Assembly (NCBI GenBank): GCA_019114285.1
Contig: DXFT01000021.1
Coordinates: 1 to 58,377, forward strand
Direction: 5' to 3'
Length of the DNA: 58,377 bases
Source: Candidatus Odoribacter faecigallinarum
GTDB lineage: Bacteria; Bacteroidota; Bacteroidia; Bacteroidales; Marinifilaceae
Both the position numbers and the translations under genes were made by a program. Numbering within the stretch: position 1 is the stretch's first letter; each line of letters begins with the position of its first letter. This document shows positions 1 through 36,923 of the stretch, piece by piece. Under the pieces are notes generated by a model. It had not been told where the DNA came from, searched no databases, and was given only the letters and a program-made list of their open reading frames with translations.

Positions 1-435
1 CTGGCTGCCGAAATCGACAAGGTGGAGATAGACACGGGGCTCATCCTCCGCTCGACGGAAAAGCTTTCCTCGCTTTACGATGTCGTCCTCCTGGAAGGGG
101 CTGGCGGGCTTTACGTGCCTGTGACCCGCGACTACCTTACCATTGATTACATCCAGGACCACGGCTATCCCTTGATTCTGGTGGCTTCCTCCAAATTGGG
201 CAGCATCAATCACACCTTGATGAGCCTGGAACTCTGCCGCCTCCGGGGCATTCGGGTGAGTCATGTCGTTTACAATGATTTCCCTGCTGACAGCGAATGG
301 ATTAAAAACGACTCCATTACCATCATCCGCAGCTATCTGCAACAGCATTTTCCGGATTGCCGCCTGTTGGAATTGCCGGTCATTCGGGACAAGGAGTGGG
401 GAAGCGTTTCCCTGGATTTAGGTACAATAGACTGA
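1..435 (+). CDS. bioD: Dethiobiotin synthase, C-terminal part (5' end outside window)
   Basis: Frame open from base 1; LLEGAGGLYVP and LGSINHTLMSLE motifs typical of BioD. Confidence 0.9.
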   Translation: MAAEIDKVEIDTGLILRSTEKLSSLYDVVLLEGAGGLYVPVTRDYLTIDYIQDHGYPLILVASSKLGSINHTLMSLELCRLRGIRVSHVVYNDFPADSEWIKNDSITIIRSYLQQHFPDCRLLELPVIRDKEWGSVSLDLGTID

Positions 436-8488: not shown

Positions 8489-8571
8489 CAAAGATAGTGA
8501 AACAGCGTTTTTCCCCGCGTAAACAAATTACGGTTGTTTATACCTATATTACTTCTTTTTGTTTATCTTTG
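8489..8571. promoter_or_regulatory. Divergent -7 elements for the TonB receptor and purL
   Basis: TATCTTTG on minus at 8489-8496 and on plus at 8564-8571. Confidence 0.55.
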
Positions 8572-28730: not shown

Positions 28731-29083
28731 GAAATAGCAGGCTGTTCTATCGCTGTTCCGCAAGGAAAAGAGGAAAGTCCGGGCAACATAGGGCATCGTG
28801 CTTCCTAACGGGAAGGCATCCGCGAGGGTGCAGGAAATGTAACAGAGAACAACCGCCCCGTTCATGCGGGGCAAGGGTGAAAAGGCGGGGTAAGAGCCCA
28901 CCGGGACTGCAGGTGACTGTGGTTGCCGTACATCTCACGAGTTGCAAGGCCATGTATATCGGCGATGTTGGTTTGCCCGACCAATGCCGAGGGGTAGGCC
29001 GCTAGAGTTGTAAAGTGATTTGCAGCGTAGATAAATGATAGAAACCGCAAGGTACAGAACCCGGCTTACAAGTCTGCTATTTC
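28731..29083 (+). ncRNA. rnpB: RNase P RNA, bacterial type A
   Basis: GAGGAAAGTCC near the 5' end, ACAGAACCCGGCTTA near the 3' end, terminal P1 pairing GAAATAGCAGGCT / AGTCTGCTATTTC. Confidence 0.96.
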
Positions 29084-29128
29084 TTTTTATTAAGAAGCGG
29101 TGCATGTGTTTTAAGTGAAAAGAGAGTT

Positions 29129-30373: not shown

Positions 30374-31711
30374 ATGAAAGAATCTCTCAAATTTGATTGC
30401 AGTAAAATTTTCCATTTTGCTAATGAAAGCGAGGTGGGGGCATTATCCACTCAGGCACATGAGGCTTTTAAGGCATTACGGGAAGGAACTTGCCCGGGGA
30501 ATGATTTTTTAGGTTGGATGGATTTGCCTGTTCAAATGACAGAAGCAGAAATTGCTGACATTGGGAAGACAGCTGCTGATTTGCGGACTCGTACCCAGGT
30601 GATGGTGGTCATTGGCATCGGTGGTTCCTATTTGGGGGCACGGGCGGTCATAGAGGCTCTTTCCAATAGTTTCCATTATTATGGTCCGGCGTCCATGAAA
30701 GTGATATTCGCCGGGCATAATATCAGTGAAGACTATTATCATGAGTTGGAAGCATATCTGCAGGACAAGGAATTTGGAATCTGTGTGGTGTCCAAGTCGG
30801 GAACTACGACAGAGCCGGCGATAGCCTTCCGCCTTTTGCGGGAGCTATTGGAGCAAAAAGTAGGGCGTGACGAAGCTGGCAGGCGTATTGTCGCCATTAC
30901 GGATGCAAGCAAGGGGGCATTGCGCACTTTGGCTGACCGGGAAGGTTATAAGACTTTTGTTATTCCTGATAATGTAGGCGGGCGTTTTTCAGTGCTGACT
31001 CCTGTAGGGCTGTTGCCGATTGCGATAGCCGGTTTTGATATTCGGGAATTGTTGAAGGGGGCTGCCGAGATGCGTGTCCAATGTATGGAAAGAGAGGGAA
31101 ATATTGCGATGGAGTATGCGATGGCGCGTACAACTTTGTACCGTAAAGGGTACGTGGTGGAACTTTTGGCGAATTTCCATCCCAAATTGCATTATATGAC
31201 CGAATGGTGGAAACAACTTTATGGAGAGAGCGAAGGCAAGGAACATAAAGGCATTTTCCCTGCCGGTGTAGATTTTACGACCGATTTGCATTCCATGGGA
31301 CAATATATCCAGGATGGCAGGAGAATGTTGATGGAGACTGTAATTAGTGTAGGAAGAGCAGAACATGAGGTGGTTATCCCACATGACGGGGATAATTTGG
31401 ATAAATTGAATTTCCTTGCCGGTAAACGGGTGGACGAGGTAAACAAAATGGCAGAATTGGGAACAAGGCTTGCGCATGTGGACGGTGGTGTGCCCAATAT
31501 GCAAATCTTCCTGCCTGCCTTGAATGCTTTTTATCTGGGACAGCTGATATATTTCTTTGAGTTGGCGTGTGGCATATCCGGGAATTTGTTGCGGGTGAAT
31601 GCTTTTGACCAGCCGGGAGTTGAGGCTTACAAGAATAACATGTTTGCTTTGTTGGATAAACCGGGGTACGAGGAGGCTTCCAAAGCAATTAAAGAAAAAT
31701 TGAAAGTGTAA
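30374..31711 (+). CDS. pgi: Glucose-6-phosphate isomerase
   Basis: [40 protein letters not shown]. Confidence 0.97.
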
Positions 31712-31721
31712 GTTTGAGAAT

Positions 31722-32009
31722 ATGAAAGGACAGGTTTTGACATTACACCGTTGTATATATTTCTCGGCATGGAGCCAAAAGGGGTATGCGATTTTTGCCG
31801 GTTTGGGAAAAGAGGTGAGAATCTCCCCCTTGTCGCTTTACATGTTCGGTATGGTGCTGTTGAAATCTGCCTTGAAAGGAATTATAGTCAATACGGACAA
31901 GGTGGCGGAAATGGTGGGGCTTTCCCTCCTGAAAGAAGAAATGGAGGCTTGTATGTGGAGAAGCAAGGGAGAGGTGTGCCCGTTATTGAACATGAGATTT
32001 AATTTATAG
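31722..32009 (+). CDS. Small hypothetical protein upstream of bioB, candidate leader peptide
   Basis: 95-aa ORF filling the pgi-bioB gap; FSAWSQKGYAIFAGLGKEVRI segment. Confidence 0.65.
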   Translation: MKGQVLTLHRCIYFSAWSQKGYAIFAGLGKEVRISPLSLYMFGMVLLKSALKGIIVNTDKVAEMVGLSLLKEEMEACMWRSKGEVCPLLNMRFNL

Positions 32010-32011
32010 TC

Positions 32012-32053
32012 AAAAGGGATATGCTGTTTGAGGCAGTGTATCCCTTTTCATTT
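32012..32053 (+). terminator. Terminator-like hairpin between the small ORF and bioB
   Basis: AAAAGGGATATGCTG-TTTGAGG-CAGTGTATCCCTTTT, a 15-bp stem with two G-U pairs, ending in TTTTCATTT. Confidence 0.75.
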
Positions 32054-32063
32054 GAGAAATAGT

Positions 32064-33023
32064 ATGATTGAAAATTTGAAAAAAAAAGTGCTTGCCGGCG
32101 GGCAGATTTCCGGAGAAGAAGCCTTGGCGTTGTCACATTGCGGGACAAAAAAGGAATTGTATCAAGCGGCAGGGGAAATTCGTGATAAGTTGGCAGGAAG
32201 GGGATTTGACCTTTGTGCCATAATAAACGCTCGTTCGGGTCGGTGCCCGGAAAATTGCAAGTGGTGCGCGCAATCTGCTTTTTTCAAAACCAACATAGAG
32301 GAATATGATTTGGTGGATGAAAGCACTTGTTTTAAGGTGGCTGATATGAACGGGAAATACGGGGTTGGGAAATTTTCCTTTGTGACCAGCGGGAGGACAT
32401 TGTCCGACCGGAATATAGACCGGATATGTGAGTATGCACGGGAACTTGGCGTGAGGTATCCGGGCATGCATTTGTGTGCGTCGATGGGACTGTTGAAGAA
32501 AGAGCAGTTGCAGCGTTTGAAAGAGGCGGGAATCCGGCGTTACCATTGCAATCTGGAGACATCGGCACAGTATTTTCCTAATTTGTGTACAACACATACG
32601 ACAGAAGAGAAAATTGCGACTATACGGGCAGCCCGGGAAATTGGCATGGAAGTTTGTTCCGGAGGAATTATTGGCATGGGGGAAAGCATGCAGGACCGGA
32701 TAGACATGGCATTATTATTGCGGGATTTGGGAATAACTTCCATTCCATTGAATGTGTTGAGTCCCATTCCGGGAACTCCTTTGGAAAACATGCCCCCCCT
32801 TTCAGACGAGGAAGTCCTGACAACAATAGCTGTTTTCCGATTTATCCATCCCAAGGCGTATTTGCGTTTCGCGGGGGGGAGGAAATTGATTGCACATATT
32901 GAGGAGGAAGCCATTGGAGCAGGCATTAATGCTGCCATTGTGGGCGATTTGTTGACCACGGTGGGGTCGAAAGTGGCGGAAGATATGGAAAAAGTAAAGA
33001 AATTAGGTTTTACAATACAATAA
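32064..33023 (+). CDS. bioB: Biotin synthase
   Basis: Radical SAM CPENCKWCAQS, YHCNLET, VCSGGIIGMGE, LRFAGGR. Confidence 0.95.
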   Translation: MIENLKKKVLAGGQISGEEALALSHCGTKKELYQAAGEIRDKLAGRGFDLCAIINARSGRCPENCKWCAQSAFFKTNIEEYDLVDESTCFKVADMNGKYGVGKFSFVTSGRTLSDRNIDRICEYARELGVRYPGMHLCASMGLLKKEQLQRLKEAGIRRYHCNLETSAQYFPNLCTTHTTEEKIATIRAAREIGMEVCSGGIIGMGESMQDRIDMALLLRDLGITSIPLNVLSPIPGTPLENMPPLSDEEVLTTIAVFRFIHPKAYLRFAGGRKLIAHIEEEAIGAGINAAIVGDLLTTVGSKVAEDMEKVKKLGFTIQ

Positions 33024-33041: not shown

Positions 33042-34325
33042 ATGAATACGATAGAGCAGATGTTAGAATTTGATAAAGAGCATATATGGCATCCTTATAC
33101 TTCGACAATAGACCCGTTGCCCGTATTTCCGGTAAAACGGGCTGAAGGCGTTTATATTGAATTGGAAGACGGGCGTCGGTTGATAGACGGCATGTCCTCT
33201 TGGTGGTGTGTCATTCACGGTTATAACCATCCGGTGCTGAATGAGGCTGTCCGCAAACAAATAGAGCAAATGTCACACGTTATGTTTGGGGGATTTACAC
33301 ACCGTCCGGCAGTAGAATTGGCAGAAAAAGTGCTCGGGATGGCTCCCCAAGGGATGAATAAGATATTTTATTCCGATTCAGGTTCTGTGGCGGTGGAAGT
33401 TGCCATGAAAATGGCATTGCAATACTGGAATGCGGCAGGAAAGCCGGAGAAGCAACATTTCATGACCATTACTAAAGGTTACCACGGCGATACATGGAAT
33501 GCCATGTCTGTATGTGACCCCGTGACCGGCATGCATAGCCTGTTTGCAGGGATATTGCCGGTGCAATATTTTGTCAACCGTCCGGAACGCCGTTTTGGGG
33601 AAGCATGCGGGGAAGAGGATTTTAAGGAATTGCGTGACTGTTTTGAAGCGCATCACAAAGACATGGCGGCGGTAATCCTTGAGCCGATTGTCCAGGGGGC
33701 TGGCGGCATGTGGTTTTATTCGGCGGATTACTTAAAGGAAGTGCGGCGCTTGTGTGACCATTACGGCGTGTTGTTGGTCTGTGATGAGATAGCTACCGGA
33801 TTCGGGCGGACTGGAAAATTATGGGCAGTGGAACATGCGGGTATTGTGCCTGACATCATGTGCATCGGCAAAGCCATTACGGGCGGTTACATGAGCTTTG
33901 CCGCTACAATGGCGACGGATGCAGTTGCGGAGATGATATGCTCTCAAAATCCTTTTGTTTTTATGCACGGACCTACTTTTATGGGCAATCCTTTGGCGTG
34001 TGCCGTGGCATGTGCCTCTATCGATTTATTGAAGACATACGATTTGGAGAAAATGATAGGTGGCATAGAAAGCCAGTTGAGAAGGGAACTTGCACCTGCG
34101 GCAGCCTGTCCGCAAGTAAAGGATGTTCGTGTGCTCGGGGCAATTGGTGTTTTGGAAATGAAGGAACCGGTCAATATGGGTGTCTTGCAGGCGCAATTTG
34201 TGGAGAAAGGCATTTGGTTACGTCCTTTTGGCAAGTTGGTATATGTAATGCCGCCTTTTGTTATCCGGCAGGATGAATTGACCCGTTTGACAACCGGATT
34301 GTTGGAAATTGTACAAACAATTTGA
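33042..34325 (+). CDS. bioA: Adenosylmethionine--8-amino-7-oxononanoate transaminase
   Basis: [46 protein letters not shown]. Confidence 0.96.
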
Positions 34326-34333
34326 CCTTTTAT

Positions 34334-35491
34334 ATGGATAGGGAATATTATATTAAGAAATTGAATACCATTAAAGAAGCCGGGAATTACAGGGTATTGA
34401 GAAATATAGAACATAATGGTTTCTTGGTGCATGTCGATGGGAAAGAAATGTTGAATCTTTCTTCCAACGACTATTTGGGGTTGGCAAGCAATCCGCGTTT
34501 GGCAGAGGAGTTCCGTTTGGAAATGGATACGGCTGCATACGGATACAGCGCCGTGTCATCCCGTTTGCTTTCCGGTAATCACCAATATTATAAAATGCTG
34601 GAAGATGATTTGAGTGATTGGTATGGCAAAGAGGCGGCTTTGGTCTTTAATTCGGGGTACCATGCTAATATTGGTATATTGCCGGCATTGAGCAGGAAAC
34701 ATGATTTGGTCATTGCCGATAAACTGGTCCATGCCAGTATCATTGACGGATTGCGTTTGTGCGAGGCGGAGATGATGCGTTACCGTCACTTGGATTACGA
34801 ACACTTGCGGAGCCTGTTGTTGCAACATCGGGAAGAATATGGGAACGTGTTTATCGTGACTGAATCCATCTTCAGTATGGATGGGGATATAGCTGACTTG
34901 CAGCAATTATGTGAAATCAAGAAAGAGTTTGATGCTTTCCTTTATGTCGATGAGGCTCATGCCGTGGGAGTGCGTGGCACAAACGGGCTGGGGTGCTGTG
35001 AAGAGCAGGGATGCATGGAGGATATAGACTTCATCGTGGGGACCTTTGGCAAGGCATTTGCTTCCATGGGCGCGTTTGTTGTTTGTGAAGATTTATTCCG
35101 GGATTACCTGGTGAATACGCAGCGTAGCCTGATATTTACGACAGCCCTCCCTCCGGTGAATGTGGCGTGGACGCGGTTTATATTAAACCGGATGCCGGAT
35201 TTCTATGACTTGCGGATAAAACTTGCCGGCATTTCCCGAAAGTTGAGGGAAATATTGGTAGCTAAGGGGTTTGAGACGCGAGGGGATTCCCATATCGTGC
35301 CCATGATTTGCGGTTCCAATGAGAATAGTGTGGAAATGGCAGGTCTTTTGCAAGATAACGGGTTCTTTGCTTTGCCGGTACGTTATCCGACAGTCCCGAA
35401 AAACGAGGCACGTATCCGCTTTTCACTGAATGCTTCCATTGGTATGGAGGATTATGAATGCTTGTTTGAATTTCTGGAGTGTCTTGAATAA
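34334..35491 (+). CDS. bioF: 8-amino-7-oxononanoate synthase
   Basis: SSNDYLGL, SGYHAN, HASIIDG, VDEAHA, GTFGKA. Confidence 0.94.
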   Translation: MDREYYIKKLNTIKEAGNYRVLRNIEHNGFLVHVDGKEMLNLSSNDYLGLASNPRLAEEFRLEMDTAAYGYSAVSSRLLSGNHQYYKMLEDDLSDWYGKEAALVFNSGYHANIGILPALSRKHDLVIADKLVHASIIDGLRLCEAEMMRYRHLDYEHLRSLLLQHREEYGNVFIVTESIFSMDGDIADLQQLCEIKKEFDAFLYVDEAHAVGVRGTNGLGCCEEQGCMEDIDFIVGTFGKAFASMGAFVVCEDLFRDYLVNTQRSLIFTTALPPVNVAWTRFILNRMPDFYDLRIKLAGISRKLREILVAKGFETRGDSHIVPMICGSNENSVEMAGLLQDNGFFALPVRYPTVPKNEARIRFSLNASIGMEDYECLFEFLECLE

Positions 35492-35502: not shown

Positions 35503-36162
35503 ATGCAGGCTGAATGGTTGAAAAAGAAAGGGAATGGGACTTTGGTTCTTTTCTTTAACGGTTGGGGGATGGAGCCGTGGGTTGTGGGGCATTTGAAAGG
35601 GGAGGAAGATATACTTGCCTTTTCGGATTACCGTACCTTGGAGATAGAGGAAGAGGCATTGCGCGGGGTGGATAACTATGCCCGGGTTTATGTCGTTGCC
35701 TGGTCTATGGGAGTTTGGGCAGCTGCCAATGTCCTCCGGAACTGGGCGTTGCCTTTGCGGGGGACTGTGGCATTGAACGGGACGGAACGTCCTGTTGACG
35801 ATACAGTTGGAATCCCTGAAAAAGTCTATCTGTTGACGGAACGCGGCATGAATCCCCGGGGACGGGAGCGGTTTGTTGCCCGCATGTTGGGTGATGCGGA
35901 GGAAAAAGAACGTTTTAAGGCGCATCCTTTGTGCCGGGAATTGCCTGAATTGTGCGAAGAATTGGTTAAGATACGGGAACAGTGTGCTGTCGCGCGGCAG
36001 GTGTGGACCTGGGACAAGGTATATATATCCCGGCAGGATGTCATCTTTCCTCCGGACAACCAGCAGCATTGGTGGGACGGCAGGGCGAAAGAAATACGCT
36101 TCCTGCCGGGTGCGCATTATCCGTTTTATCATTTTCAGTCCTGGGAGGAAATATTGTCATGA
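35503..36162 (+). CDS. bioG: DUF452 / BioG-type pimeloyl-ACP methyl ester esterase
   Basis: LFFNGWGM, AWSMG nucleophile elbow, D..F, terminal HYPF; lies between bioF and bioC. Confidence 0.8.
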   Translation: MQAEWLKKKGNGTLVLFFNGWGMEPWVVGHLKGEEDILAFSDYRTLEIEEEALRGVDNYARVYVVAWSMGVWAAANVLRNWALPLRGTVALNGTERPVDDTVGIPEKVYLLTERGMNPRGRERFVARMLGDAEEKERFKAHPLCRELPELCEELVKIREQCAVARQVWTWDKVYISRQDVIFPPDNQQHWWDGRAKEIRFLPGAHYPFYHFQSWEEILS

Positions 36163-36923
36163 CCGCGATAGACAAAGCCAAGGTGGCATGCTGTTTTGGG
36201 AAAAGCGTGGAAAGCTATGAACAGCATGCGCATGTGCAAAAAGAGATAGCCGCCCATTTGGCTGGGCTTGCCGGGGACTATGTCAAGCCTTTGCCGGCAA
36301 AAGTGTTGGAAGTAGGGTGTGGGACAGGTTTGCTGACCGGTTCAATCAAGCGTTTGTGGATAGGTTGTGATTTGTGGATAAATGATTTGGTGGAAGGCAT
36401 GTGCATGAAGTCGGCAGCGCGTTTCTGCATTCCTGCTTCGCATTGCCTGGTTGGGGATATAGAGGAAATTCCCTTGCCCGGCAACATGGATTGCCTTTTG
36501 TCTGCTTCCGTATTTCAATGGTTGTCACACCCGCAGGCGACTTATGCACGTTTGGCGGAGAGCCTTTCTGCCGGCGGTTGGCTGGTGTTCAGTACGTTTG
36601 GGGAGGATAATTGCCTTGAATTGCGGGAAGTCTCGGGGACAGGTTTGCCCTATCTTCAAAAAGAAGAGACCATTGCCATGCTTTCCGGACATTTCCAGGT
36701 TATCCATGTCGAGGAAGAACACCGCCGGCTTTATTTCCCGGATGCAGTGCAGGTGTTGAAACATATCAAGCAGACCGGGGTAAACGGTCTTGCCGGTTCC
36801 CAAATTTGGACACGTGGGAAATTGCAGGATTTCTCGGCGCGTTATGCCCGCCTTTTTGCTTGTGACGGCATGTTGCCCCTTACGTATCATCCCCGCTACT
36901 TTGTTTGCCGGAAACGTCAATAG
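36159..36923 (+). CDS. bioC: Malonyl-ACP O-methyltransferase
   Basis: VLEVGCGTG SAM motif, FQW, FSTFG, TGVN, LTY; ATGA overlap with the upstream stop. Confidence 0.88.
   Translation: MTAIDKAKVACCFGKSVESYEQHAHVQKEIAAHLAGLAGDYVKPLPAKVLEVGCGTGLLTGSIKRLWIGCDLWINDLVEGMCMKSAARFCIPASHCLVGDIEEIPLPGNMDCLLSASVFQWLSHPQATYARLAESLSAGGWLVFSTFGEDNCLELREVSGTGLPYLQKEETIAMLSGHFQVIHVEEEHRRLYFPDAVQVLKHIKQTGVNGLAGSQIWTRGKLQDFSARYARLFACDGMLPLTYHPRYFVCRKRQ

What the first reader, a model, noticed from the sequence alone, without database searches (positions are those of the whole stretch)
31709..32066. Candidate leader-peptide attenuator controlling the biotin operon
Seen: a TAAGTTTG -7 box (31709-31716) just before a 95-codon ORF (31722-32009). 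Two nt after its stop, a 15-bp hairpin with a U-rich tail begins (32012-32053), and bioB starts at 32064 with no consensus promoter in between. A ribosome at the ORF's stop would cover the 5' arm of the hairpin. From recall, unverified: the FxxWSxKxYAxFxxL segment occurs in small Bacteroidetes ORFs near bio genes and at the N-terminus of some TonB receptors, and Bacteroidetes BirA generally lacks a DNA-binding domain, so their bio regulation is poorly explained. Inference: translation-coupled attenuation in which biotin status affects ribosome progress through the conserved motif and hence read-through into bioBAFGC. This would be an undescribed biotin-sensing mechanism.
Basis: partly seen in the sequence, partly recalled or inferred. 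Interest (0 to 1): 0.8.

Follow-up and report, generated by a model that had tools for sequence, protein, structure and literature searches.

The report
Portable biotin-control leader peptide
A small gene in front of this gut bacterium's biotin (vitamin B7) genes encodes a conserved stretch of about 24 amino acids that, across its relatives, heads only biotin-making genes or one outer-membrane transporter, so it is likely a feedback switch, predicted to stall its own ribosome when biotin is plentiful and so let a transcription stop signal shut the genes off.

Summary
The 95-codon ORF (31722-32009) and the hairpin (32012-32053, z -4.2) sit before bioBAFGC. The ORF's motif occurs in 136 of 301 genomes of the order. 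In every locus with readable context it is either a short leader before bioB, bioA or one TonB-receptor family, or an in-frame N-terminal extension of BioB or of that receptor. Selection is on the peptide: synonymous sites are free and there is no shared RNA fold. 51 of 66 leaders have a terminator (control 5 of 65). In all 51 the frame runs to within 13 nt of the stem or through it, whereas 90 of 112 ordinary terminators lie more than 12 nt after a stop. So a ribosome finishing the leader would block termination, and a stall would mean OFF, as it would in the fusions. The receptor is nearly exclusive with bioA (8 shared genomes, 33 expected), so it is likely a biotin importer. BirA lacks a DNA-binding domain. 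Stalling, the ligand and biotin dependence are inferred, not shown. I found no description in 10 literature searches.

The parts
30374..31711 (+). pgi, upstream gene; its TAA stop is the first three bases of the -7 box; not conserved as the neighbour in most relatives
31709..31716 (+). Bacteroidota -7 promoter-like box, 5 nt before the ATG (near-leaderless start predicted)
   Evidence: consensus as given in PMC7366714 passages
31722..32009 (+). leader ORF, 95 aa, no Pfam or NCBIfam family
31761..31832 (+). core motif F14-L37 (family consensus FxRWSRKxYAxFxSLGKxVxIGxL), shared by leaders and fusions
31833..31868 (+). extension to LLKS, conserved in stand-alone leaders; replaced by the hydrophobic signal segment in most receptor fusions
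31968..31982 (+). GEVCP codons; weakly complementary to the terminator 5' arm in this family only (candidate helper pairing)
32012..32053 (+). intrinsic-terminator-like hairpin with U-rich tail, GC stem 6 nt after the leader stop
32064..33023 (+). bioB
33042..34325 (+). bioA
34322..35491 (+). bioF (best model TIGR00858, just under its cut-off)
35503..36162 (+). bioG
36159..36923 (+). bioC

Best explanation
The ORF is a translated leader whose conserved 24-residue motif heads biotin-synthesis genes or one TonB-receptor family across the Bacteroidales, and it likely acts in cis as a feedback checkpoint: when biotin is scarce the ribosome would read through the motif and reach the terminator, blocking it, and when biotin is plentiful the nascent motif is predicted to stall its ribosome, so that the hairpin would form and bioBAFGC would be cut off. 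Where the motif is fused to BioB or to the receptor's signal peptide, the same stall would cut expression directly or expose the mRNA to Rho. The receptor is likely a biotin or dethiobiotin importer. Shown by sequence: linkage, peptide-level selection, terminator geometry, fusions, receptor/bioA exclusion. Inferred: translation of the leader, stalling, its direction, the ligand. Whether biotin binds in the ribosome tunnel or is relayed by a factor is open.
For: Linkage: 26 of 26 first loci precede bioB. Of 66 short leaders, 57 precede bioB, 5 bioA, 3 the receptor and 1 a cut-off bioB. A motif-only scan of 185,579 genomes gave 66 hits; all 63 with readable downstream DNA lead to bioB (38 leaders, 10 in-frame fusions) or to the receptor (8 leaders, 7 fusions). 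Peptide selection: frame open in 124 of 124, shifted frames stopped in 98 and 82; information by codon position 0.92/1.08/0.31 bits; both codon families of Ser, Arg and Leu are used; pN/pS 0.26 in the core against 0.74 just upstream; no consensus RNA fold. Terminator: 51 of 66 leaders against 5 of 65 controls and 41 of 46 in the second set. Stop 0-13 nt before the stem in 14, inside it in 13, beyond it in 24. The frame stays open up to the stem in 51 of 51, shifted frames in 3 and 3. Ordinary terminators of this genome lie more than 12 nt after stops in 90 of 112 cases. Cis action: two copies occur in one operon (L116, L076, L257) or at two loci (G121, G329). The motif is separable from export: 34 of 40 receptor orthologues missed have a plain signal peptide. 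Receptor in 149 and bioA in 67 of the same 301 genomes, both in 8; clean swaps in 13 of the 18 families that hold both. Operons receptor-bioBAFGC (L093, L101), receptor-bioB (L130) and leader-bioB-sodium:solute symporter-receptor (L076). BirA is about 247 aa with only the ligase domain.
Against: No expression, ribosome or biotin-response data. 23 of 67 bioA genomes have no motif hit, and none was found in the 20 such loci read, so it is not the order's only arrangement. Most receptor-fusion loci have no biotin gene within about 8 kb: only L093 and L101 of 55, plus L130 outside that count. 9 of 66 leaders have no hairpin even at -8 kcal/mol. The BioB fusions appear to keep BioB's own Met, so they could start internally. 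Known bacterial metabolite-sensing arrest peptides need high ligand levels (PMC8429421 passages), while free biotin is scarce (own knowledge). The terminator lies 240-328 nt beyond the motif, farther than an in-tunnel stall would need. Genomes are related, so the counts overstate independence.
Confidence: 0.62

Rival explanations
1. The cis checkpoint is real, but the signal is not biotin or a biotin adduct. It is a linked metabolic state (acyl-ACP, malonyl-CoA, SAM, Fe-S supply or carboxylase activity) that slows the ribosome.
For: Nothing here identifies the ligand. Free biotin is scarce (own knowledge), and TnaC and SpeFL need high ligand levels.
Against: The targets are only biotin synthesis genes and a receptor that replaces them; no other gene type was found in the contexts read.
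Confidence: 0.12
2. The finished small protein acts in trans, as an RNA-binding antiterminator or as a co-repressor, and its place in the leader is autoregulation.
For: The motif is basic and aromatic, and AlphaFold2 gives it a strand-helix-strand shape at pLDDT 75-86. The long spacer would let it leave the tunnel before the terminator is reached.
Against: In about half of the rows it is part of a cleaved signal peptide or of BioB. Transcripts carry their own copies, even in tandem. The C-terminal half is not conserved, and no conserved RNA target was found.
Confidence: 0.1
3. The ORF is a relic of the receptor's N-terminus, left in front of the bio operon after deletion. It only supplies a start site and a fixed level of read-through, with no sensing.
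For: Receptor-bioBAFGC operons exist (L093, L101), which gives a route to such a relic.
Against: Purifying selection in the leaders. The frame is kept open to the terminator in 51 of 51. Leaders stand in front of intact receptors. Receptors are exported without the motif.
Confidence: 0.08
4. A trp-type switch with the opposite sign: a stall during starvation frees an antiterminator (the GEVCP codons) that pairs with the terminator's 5' arm and turns the operon on.
For: In this family the GEVCP codons are often the best upstream partner of the 5' arm; 8 of 22 loci beat at least 19 of 20 shuffles.
Against: Only 2 of 29 loci outside the family do so, and the window's own locus does not (5 of 20 shuffles as good). 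There is no run of regulatory codons. A stall cannot turn on an in-frame fusion, and 24 of 51 leaders translate through the whole hairpin.
Confidence: 0.08

Closest known systems
CruR (DUF2946) uORF of Bordetella pertussis (PMC9426467; abstract, outline and passages read)
   Same: A translated upstream ORF whose nascent peptide senses a nutrient and controls termination before a TonB-dependent transporter; ligand present = OFF.
   Different: [quoted passage not shown] Here the motif is N-terminal and unrelated, the terminator is intrinsic, the ligand is predicted to cause the stall, and the module is also fused in frame to its targets.
Ligand-dependent arrest peptides TnaC and SpeFL (PMC8429421; passages read)
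   Same: A tunnel-length peptide conserved at the amino-acid level, in front of a metabolic operon.
   Different: They sense amino acids and arrest at termination. From recall, their stall turns a catabolic operon on by blocking Rho. Here the motif lies 50 or more codons before the stop, and a stall would turn biosynthesis and uptake off.
pyrBI/pyrE-type coupling attenuators (recalled, no paper read)
   Same: A trailing ribosome physically blocks a terminator that overlaps the end of an ORF.
   Different: There the peptide sequence is irrelevant and the signal acts on RNA polymerase. Here the peptide is under selection.
Plant CGS1 nascent-peptide feedback and fungal arginine attenuator peptide (CGS1 recalled; AAP only named)
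   Same: Product-induced stall = OFF, and the module can sit in frame at the N-terminus of the regulated enzyme.
   Different: Eukaryotic, with no transcription terminator and other ligands.
BirA, BioR and BioQ biotin regulons (BirA and BioQ named as regulators in PMC6593275 passages; mechanism and BioR recalled)
   Same: Co-control of biotin synthesis and uptake genes.
   Different: They are DNA-binding repressors. BirA here lacks the DNA-binding domain.

Membership tests
trp-type leader-peptide attenuator | intrinsic terminator between leader and first gene | tested here: met
trp-type leader-peptide attenuator | run of regulatory codons | tested here: not met
   mixed motif, no codon run
trp-type leader-peptide attenuator | conserved alternative antiterminator | tested here: inconclusive
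   8 of 22 in own family, 2 of 29 elsewhere
pyrBI/pyrE-type coupling attenuator | ORF end overlaps or abuts the terminator | tested here: met
   51 of 51 within 13 nt or overlapping; 22 of 112 ordinary terminators within 12 nt or overlapping
pyrBI/pyrE-type coupling attenuator | peptide sequence unconstrained | tested here: not met
ligand-dependent arrest peptides (TnaC, SpeFL) | conservation at amino-acid, not RNA, level | tested here: met
ligand-dependent arrest peptides (TnaC, SpeFL) | ligand-dependent ribosome arrest | not testable with these tools
   needs toeprinting or ribosome profiling
ligand-dependent arrest peptides (TnaC, SpeFL) | arrest motif ends at the stop codon | tested here: not met
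   the stop lies 52-220 codons after the motif Trp
CruR / DUF2946 | CXXC and C-terminal RAPP motifs, Pfam DUF2946 | tested here: not met
   no such family among 64 members; not in the consensus
riboswitch | conserved, covarying RNA fold or Rfam match | tested here: not met
   no Rfam match here; consensus fold empty over the motif codons
biotinylation acceptor peptide | invariant acceptor lysine | tested here: not met
   K in 104 of 124; R, H, N, S and others occur
BirA operator regulon | BirA with N-terminal HTH | tested here: not met
   own BirA about 247 aa, PF03099 only; 30 relatives 223-282 aa

The most novel reading that the evidence does not exclude
Bacteroidales sense vitamin B7 with a portable nascent-peptide module: the first vitamin-sensing ribosome arrest peptide in bacteria. 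It works as a stand-alone attenuator, as an N-terminal tag on BioB and as an extension of a signal peptide, and it marks the first TonB-dependent biotin importer family.
Probability: 0.5. Interest if true: 0.92.

Novelty: new variant of a known kind. Interest (0 to 1): 0.8.

Why it matters
It offers a testable answer to how a dominant gut order, whose BirA cannot bind DNA, controls biotin synthesis and uptake. It would add a cofactor to the ligands that nascent peptides can sense, with an OFF logic and a plug-in architecture not seen in TnaC, SpeFL or CruR. It also names a single-copy receptor family, found in 149 of 301 genomes and mostly in those without bioA, as a candidate biotin importer, which bears on vitamin cross-feeding in the gut. 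Named cultured carriers (Parabacteroides distasonis, P. gordonii, Phocaeicola massiliensis, Alistipes putredinis) make it directly testable.

Tried and rejected
Co-folding own BirA with the 40-residue motif gave no verdict, so it is used neither for nor against binding. No family or structure was found for the peptide: Pfam and NCBIfam, PDB sequences, Foldseek (none at E 0.001) and the ESM Atlas. The receptor family has no close solved structure; its best match is E. coli BtuB at 153 bits. RNA contigs from 4 runs of 4 studies cover parts of the leader and operon but cannot show ends or levels; one contig spans pgi into the leader, which is not used as evidence. A riboswitch was rejected; single sequences fold only slightly better than synonymous recodings (mean z -0.93, 19 of 124 below -2). 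A biotinyl-lysine model was rejected. No terminator was found inside receptor fusions (3 of 56, control 6 of 56). No recurring neighbour that could be a trans factor was found: the clusters were bioD and family-local genes. My first terminator script tested even window sizes only and missed hairpins; one search replaces it. A start-sequestering fold in the terminator-poor Labilibaculum-type loci was not significant (6-33 of 100 shuffles). Two papers were not held: Rodionov 2002 on BirA and Johnson 2020 on coupling. So coupling in Bacteroidales rests on my own terminator-spacing count; PMC13753749 passages do not settle it.

Full report
Observation. The coordinates are right. The 95-codon ORF at 31722-32009 follows pgi by 10 nt, the hairpin at 32012-32053 starts 2 nt after its stop, and bioB starts at 32064. 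The hairpin region folds at z -4.19 with 0 of 200 shuffles as good, although the simple scanner did not list it. The operon is bioB-bioA-bioF-bioG-bioC. The ORF matches no Pfam or NCBIfam family, and no Rfam family lies here.

Distribution. The single protein found relatives in 26 of 61 genomes, all in its own family, and all 26 lie directly before bioB while the upstream gene varies. A profile of 64 proteins hit 136 of 301 genomes of the order, 139 places in all. I read the context of 105 of those 139; the 34 unread are all in long open frames. In a phylum-wide sample 8 of 301 genomes matched: 7 in the order and 1 outside it, whose match holds two stops. A pattern scan of 185,579 genomes gave 66 hits named Bacteroides, Phocaeicola, Parabacteroides, Tannerella, Alistipes, Paludibacter, Labilibaculum and similar, with two Flammeovirga records and one small contig labelled Desulfovibrionaceae as outliers. 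The order is therefore Bacteroidales. The own family is probably Marinifilaceae, since locus L026 carries the same leader N-terminus as a Labilibaculum record (inference).

Architectures. After removing 9 duplicate loci and 4 rows that my anchor pattern did not fit (L075, L089, L090, L130), 124 rows remained: 66 short ORFs, 56 N-termini of a TonB receptor and 2 BioB fusions (L077 is motif-BioB-BioA). The short ORFs precede bioB (57), bioA (5), the receptor (3) or a cut-off bioB (1). In the pattern-scan set, which shares a few loci with the first, all 63 hits with readable downstream DNA lead to bioB or the receptor: 38 leader-bioB, 10 BioB fusions, 8 leader-receptor and 7 receptor fusions; 3 hit contig ends. 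The receptors checked all belong to one family (1.0 bits per position or more, against 0.44 or less for this genome's paralogues).

What is conserved. The consensus is FxRWSRKxYAxFxSLGKxVxIGxL. The frame is open in 124 of 124 rows, and the shifted frames have stops in 98 and 82. Third positions carry 0.31 bits against 0.92 and 1.08, and Ser, Arg and Leu use both codon families. Among close relatives pN/pS is 0.26 in the core, 0.36 in the extension and 0.74 just upstream, and RNAalifold finds no consensus fold. A Met lies 14-19 codons before the Trp in 115 of 124 rows, so start plus motif is about 36 residues, roughly a tunnel length (tunnel length from own knowledge). The Lys is not invariant (104 of 124).

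The terminator. 51 of 66 leaders have a U-tailed hairpin of -10 kcal/mol or better, 240-328 nt after the Trp codon. Control windows give 5 of 65, and receptor fusions 3 of 56 against 6 of 56. The stop lies 0-13 nt before the stem (14), inside it (13) or beyond it (24), never farther upstream. The leader frame is open to the stem in 51 of 51, the shifted frames in 3 and 3. The second set gives 41 of 46 with a hairpin, and the stop is at most 6 nt upstream. In this genome, ordinary terminators with 6 or more T lie more than 12 nt after the stop in 90 of 112 cases, peaking at 20-30 nt (900 genes examined, 196 with any hairpin). So ordinary terminators keep clear of the ribosome footprint and these do not. 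A ribosome that finishes the leader would block termination (inference). Many leaders also overlap the bioB start.

Direction and ligand. A stall in an in-frame fusion can only lower expression, and a stall upstream of these terminators would let them form, so all layouts agree on stall = OFF. For biosynthesis and uptake genes that points to a stall when biotin is plentiful (inference). Copies sit on each transcript, even in tandem (L116, L076, L257; G121, G329), which favours action in cis. Of 40 receptor orthologues missed, 34 have a plain signal peptide and 6 carry the motif, so the motif is an add-on, not an export need. Own BirA is about 247 aa with only the ligase domain, and 30 relatives read are 223-282 aa.

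The receptor. It occurs in 149 and bioA in 67 of the same 301 genomes, both in only 8 (33 expected; Fisher p 5e-13, overstated by kinship). 13 of the 18 families that hold both show a clean swap. Operons join it to bioBAFGC (L093, L101), to bioB (L130), and to bioB plus a sodium:solute symporter (L076). It is likely a biotin or dethiobiotin importer.

Against. There are no expression data; RNA contigs were uninformative. 23 of 67 bioA genomes lack a hit (searches compared by hand), and 20 such loci read showed no motif. Of 55 long receptor-fusion loci only 2 hold true bio genes; two further weak hits at 28-34% identity look like paralogues. 9 of 66 leaders lack a hairpin at -8 kcal/mol. BioB fusions appear to keep an internal Met. 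The -7 box overlaps the pgi stop and is absent in the closest relative, so co-transcription with pgi is possible here; but a box within 9 nt of the ATG marks 20 of 64 leaders, 0 of 55 receptor fusions and 19 of 1506 ordinary ORFs, and short 5' UTRs are rare in B. thetaiotaomicron (about 3.7% under 10 nt; PMC7366714 passages). The long spacer and the predicted strand-helix-strand shape leave room for a factor that binds the emerged peptide. A candidate antiterminator exists only in the own family.

Comparison and novelty. It works like CruR (PMC9426467; abstract and passages) and like TnaC and SpeFL (PMC8429421; passages), but it fails their membership features, and it borrows the geometry of pyrBI-type attenuators (recalled). 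Ten full-text searches (listings only, except the papers cited) showed no description of a biotin leader peptide or a TonB biotin importer; the library lacks most subscription papers. PMC6593275 passages list only BioY and YigM as biotin transporters. An earlier unreviewed report of this scan reached the same idea from another genome. I saw it after my analysis; it is not independent support, and it pointed me to CruR.

Verdict. A real, conserved, peptide-encoded control element of a Bacteroidales biotin regulon (about 0.85), most likely a biotin-triggered stall that turns expression off (0.62). New variant of a known kind; interest 0.8.

Noticed in passing
window 28734-29084: RNase P RNA, class A.
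   Followed up: no
window 4-276 and contig C30 6-365: bioD is split across two contig ends, about 32 kb from the operon; the genome holds only one motif copy, so bioD has no detected leader.
   Followed up: partly
L023 671-1468: birA lies directly upstream of the leader and bioB in one genome.
   Followed up: no
L076 977-5896: Operon leader-bioB-sodium:solute symporter-receptor in a genome without bioA: looks like a complete dethiobiotin salvage unit with two motif copies.
   Followed up: partly
L025, L026, L247, L249, L250, L286, L301, last 90 nt before bioB: Labilibaculum-type leaders mostly lack a strong terminator but keep three short segments, the middle one able to pair with either neighbour, the last next to the bioB start; folding was not significant against shuffles.
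   Followed up: partly
L294, L299: Flammeovirga records carry leader, terminator and receptor outside the order; possible transfer.
   Followed up: no
L077 and L040: BioB-BioA fusion proteins; in L077 with the motif fused in front.
   Followed up: partly
leaders: Near-leaderless starts are common for stand-alone leaders but absent for receptor fusions.
   Followed up: partly
window minus strand, open frame beginning near 8560: A distant TonB-receptor paralogue (174 bits to the family profile), not a member of the motif-linked family.
   Followed up: no
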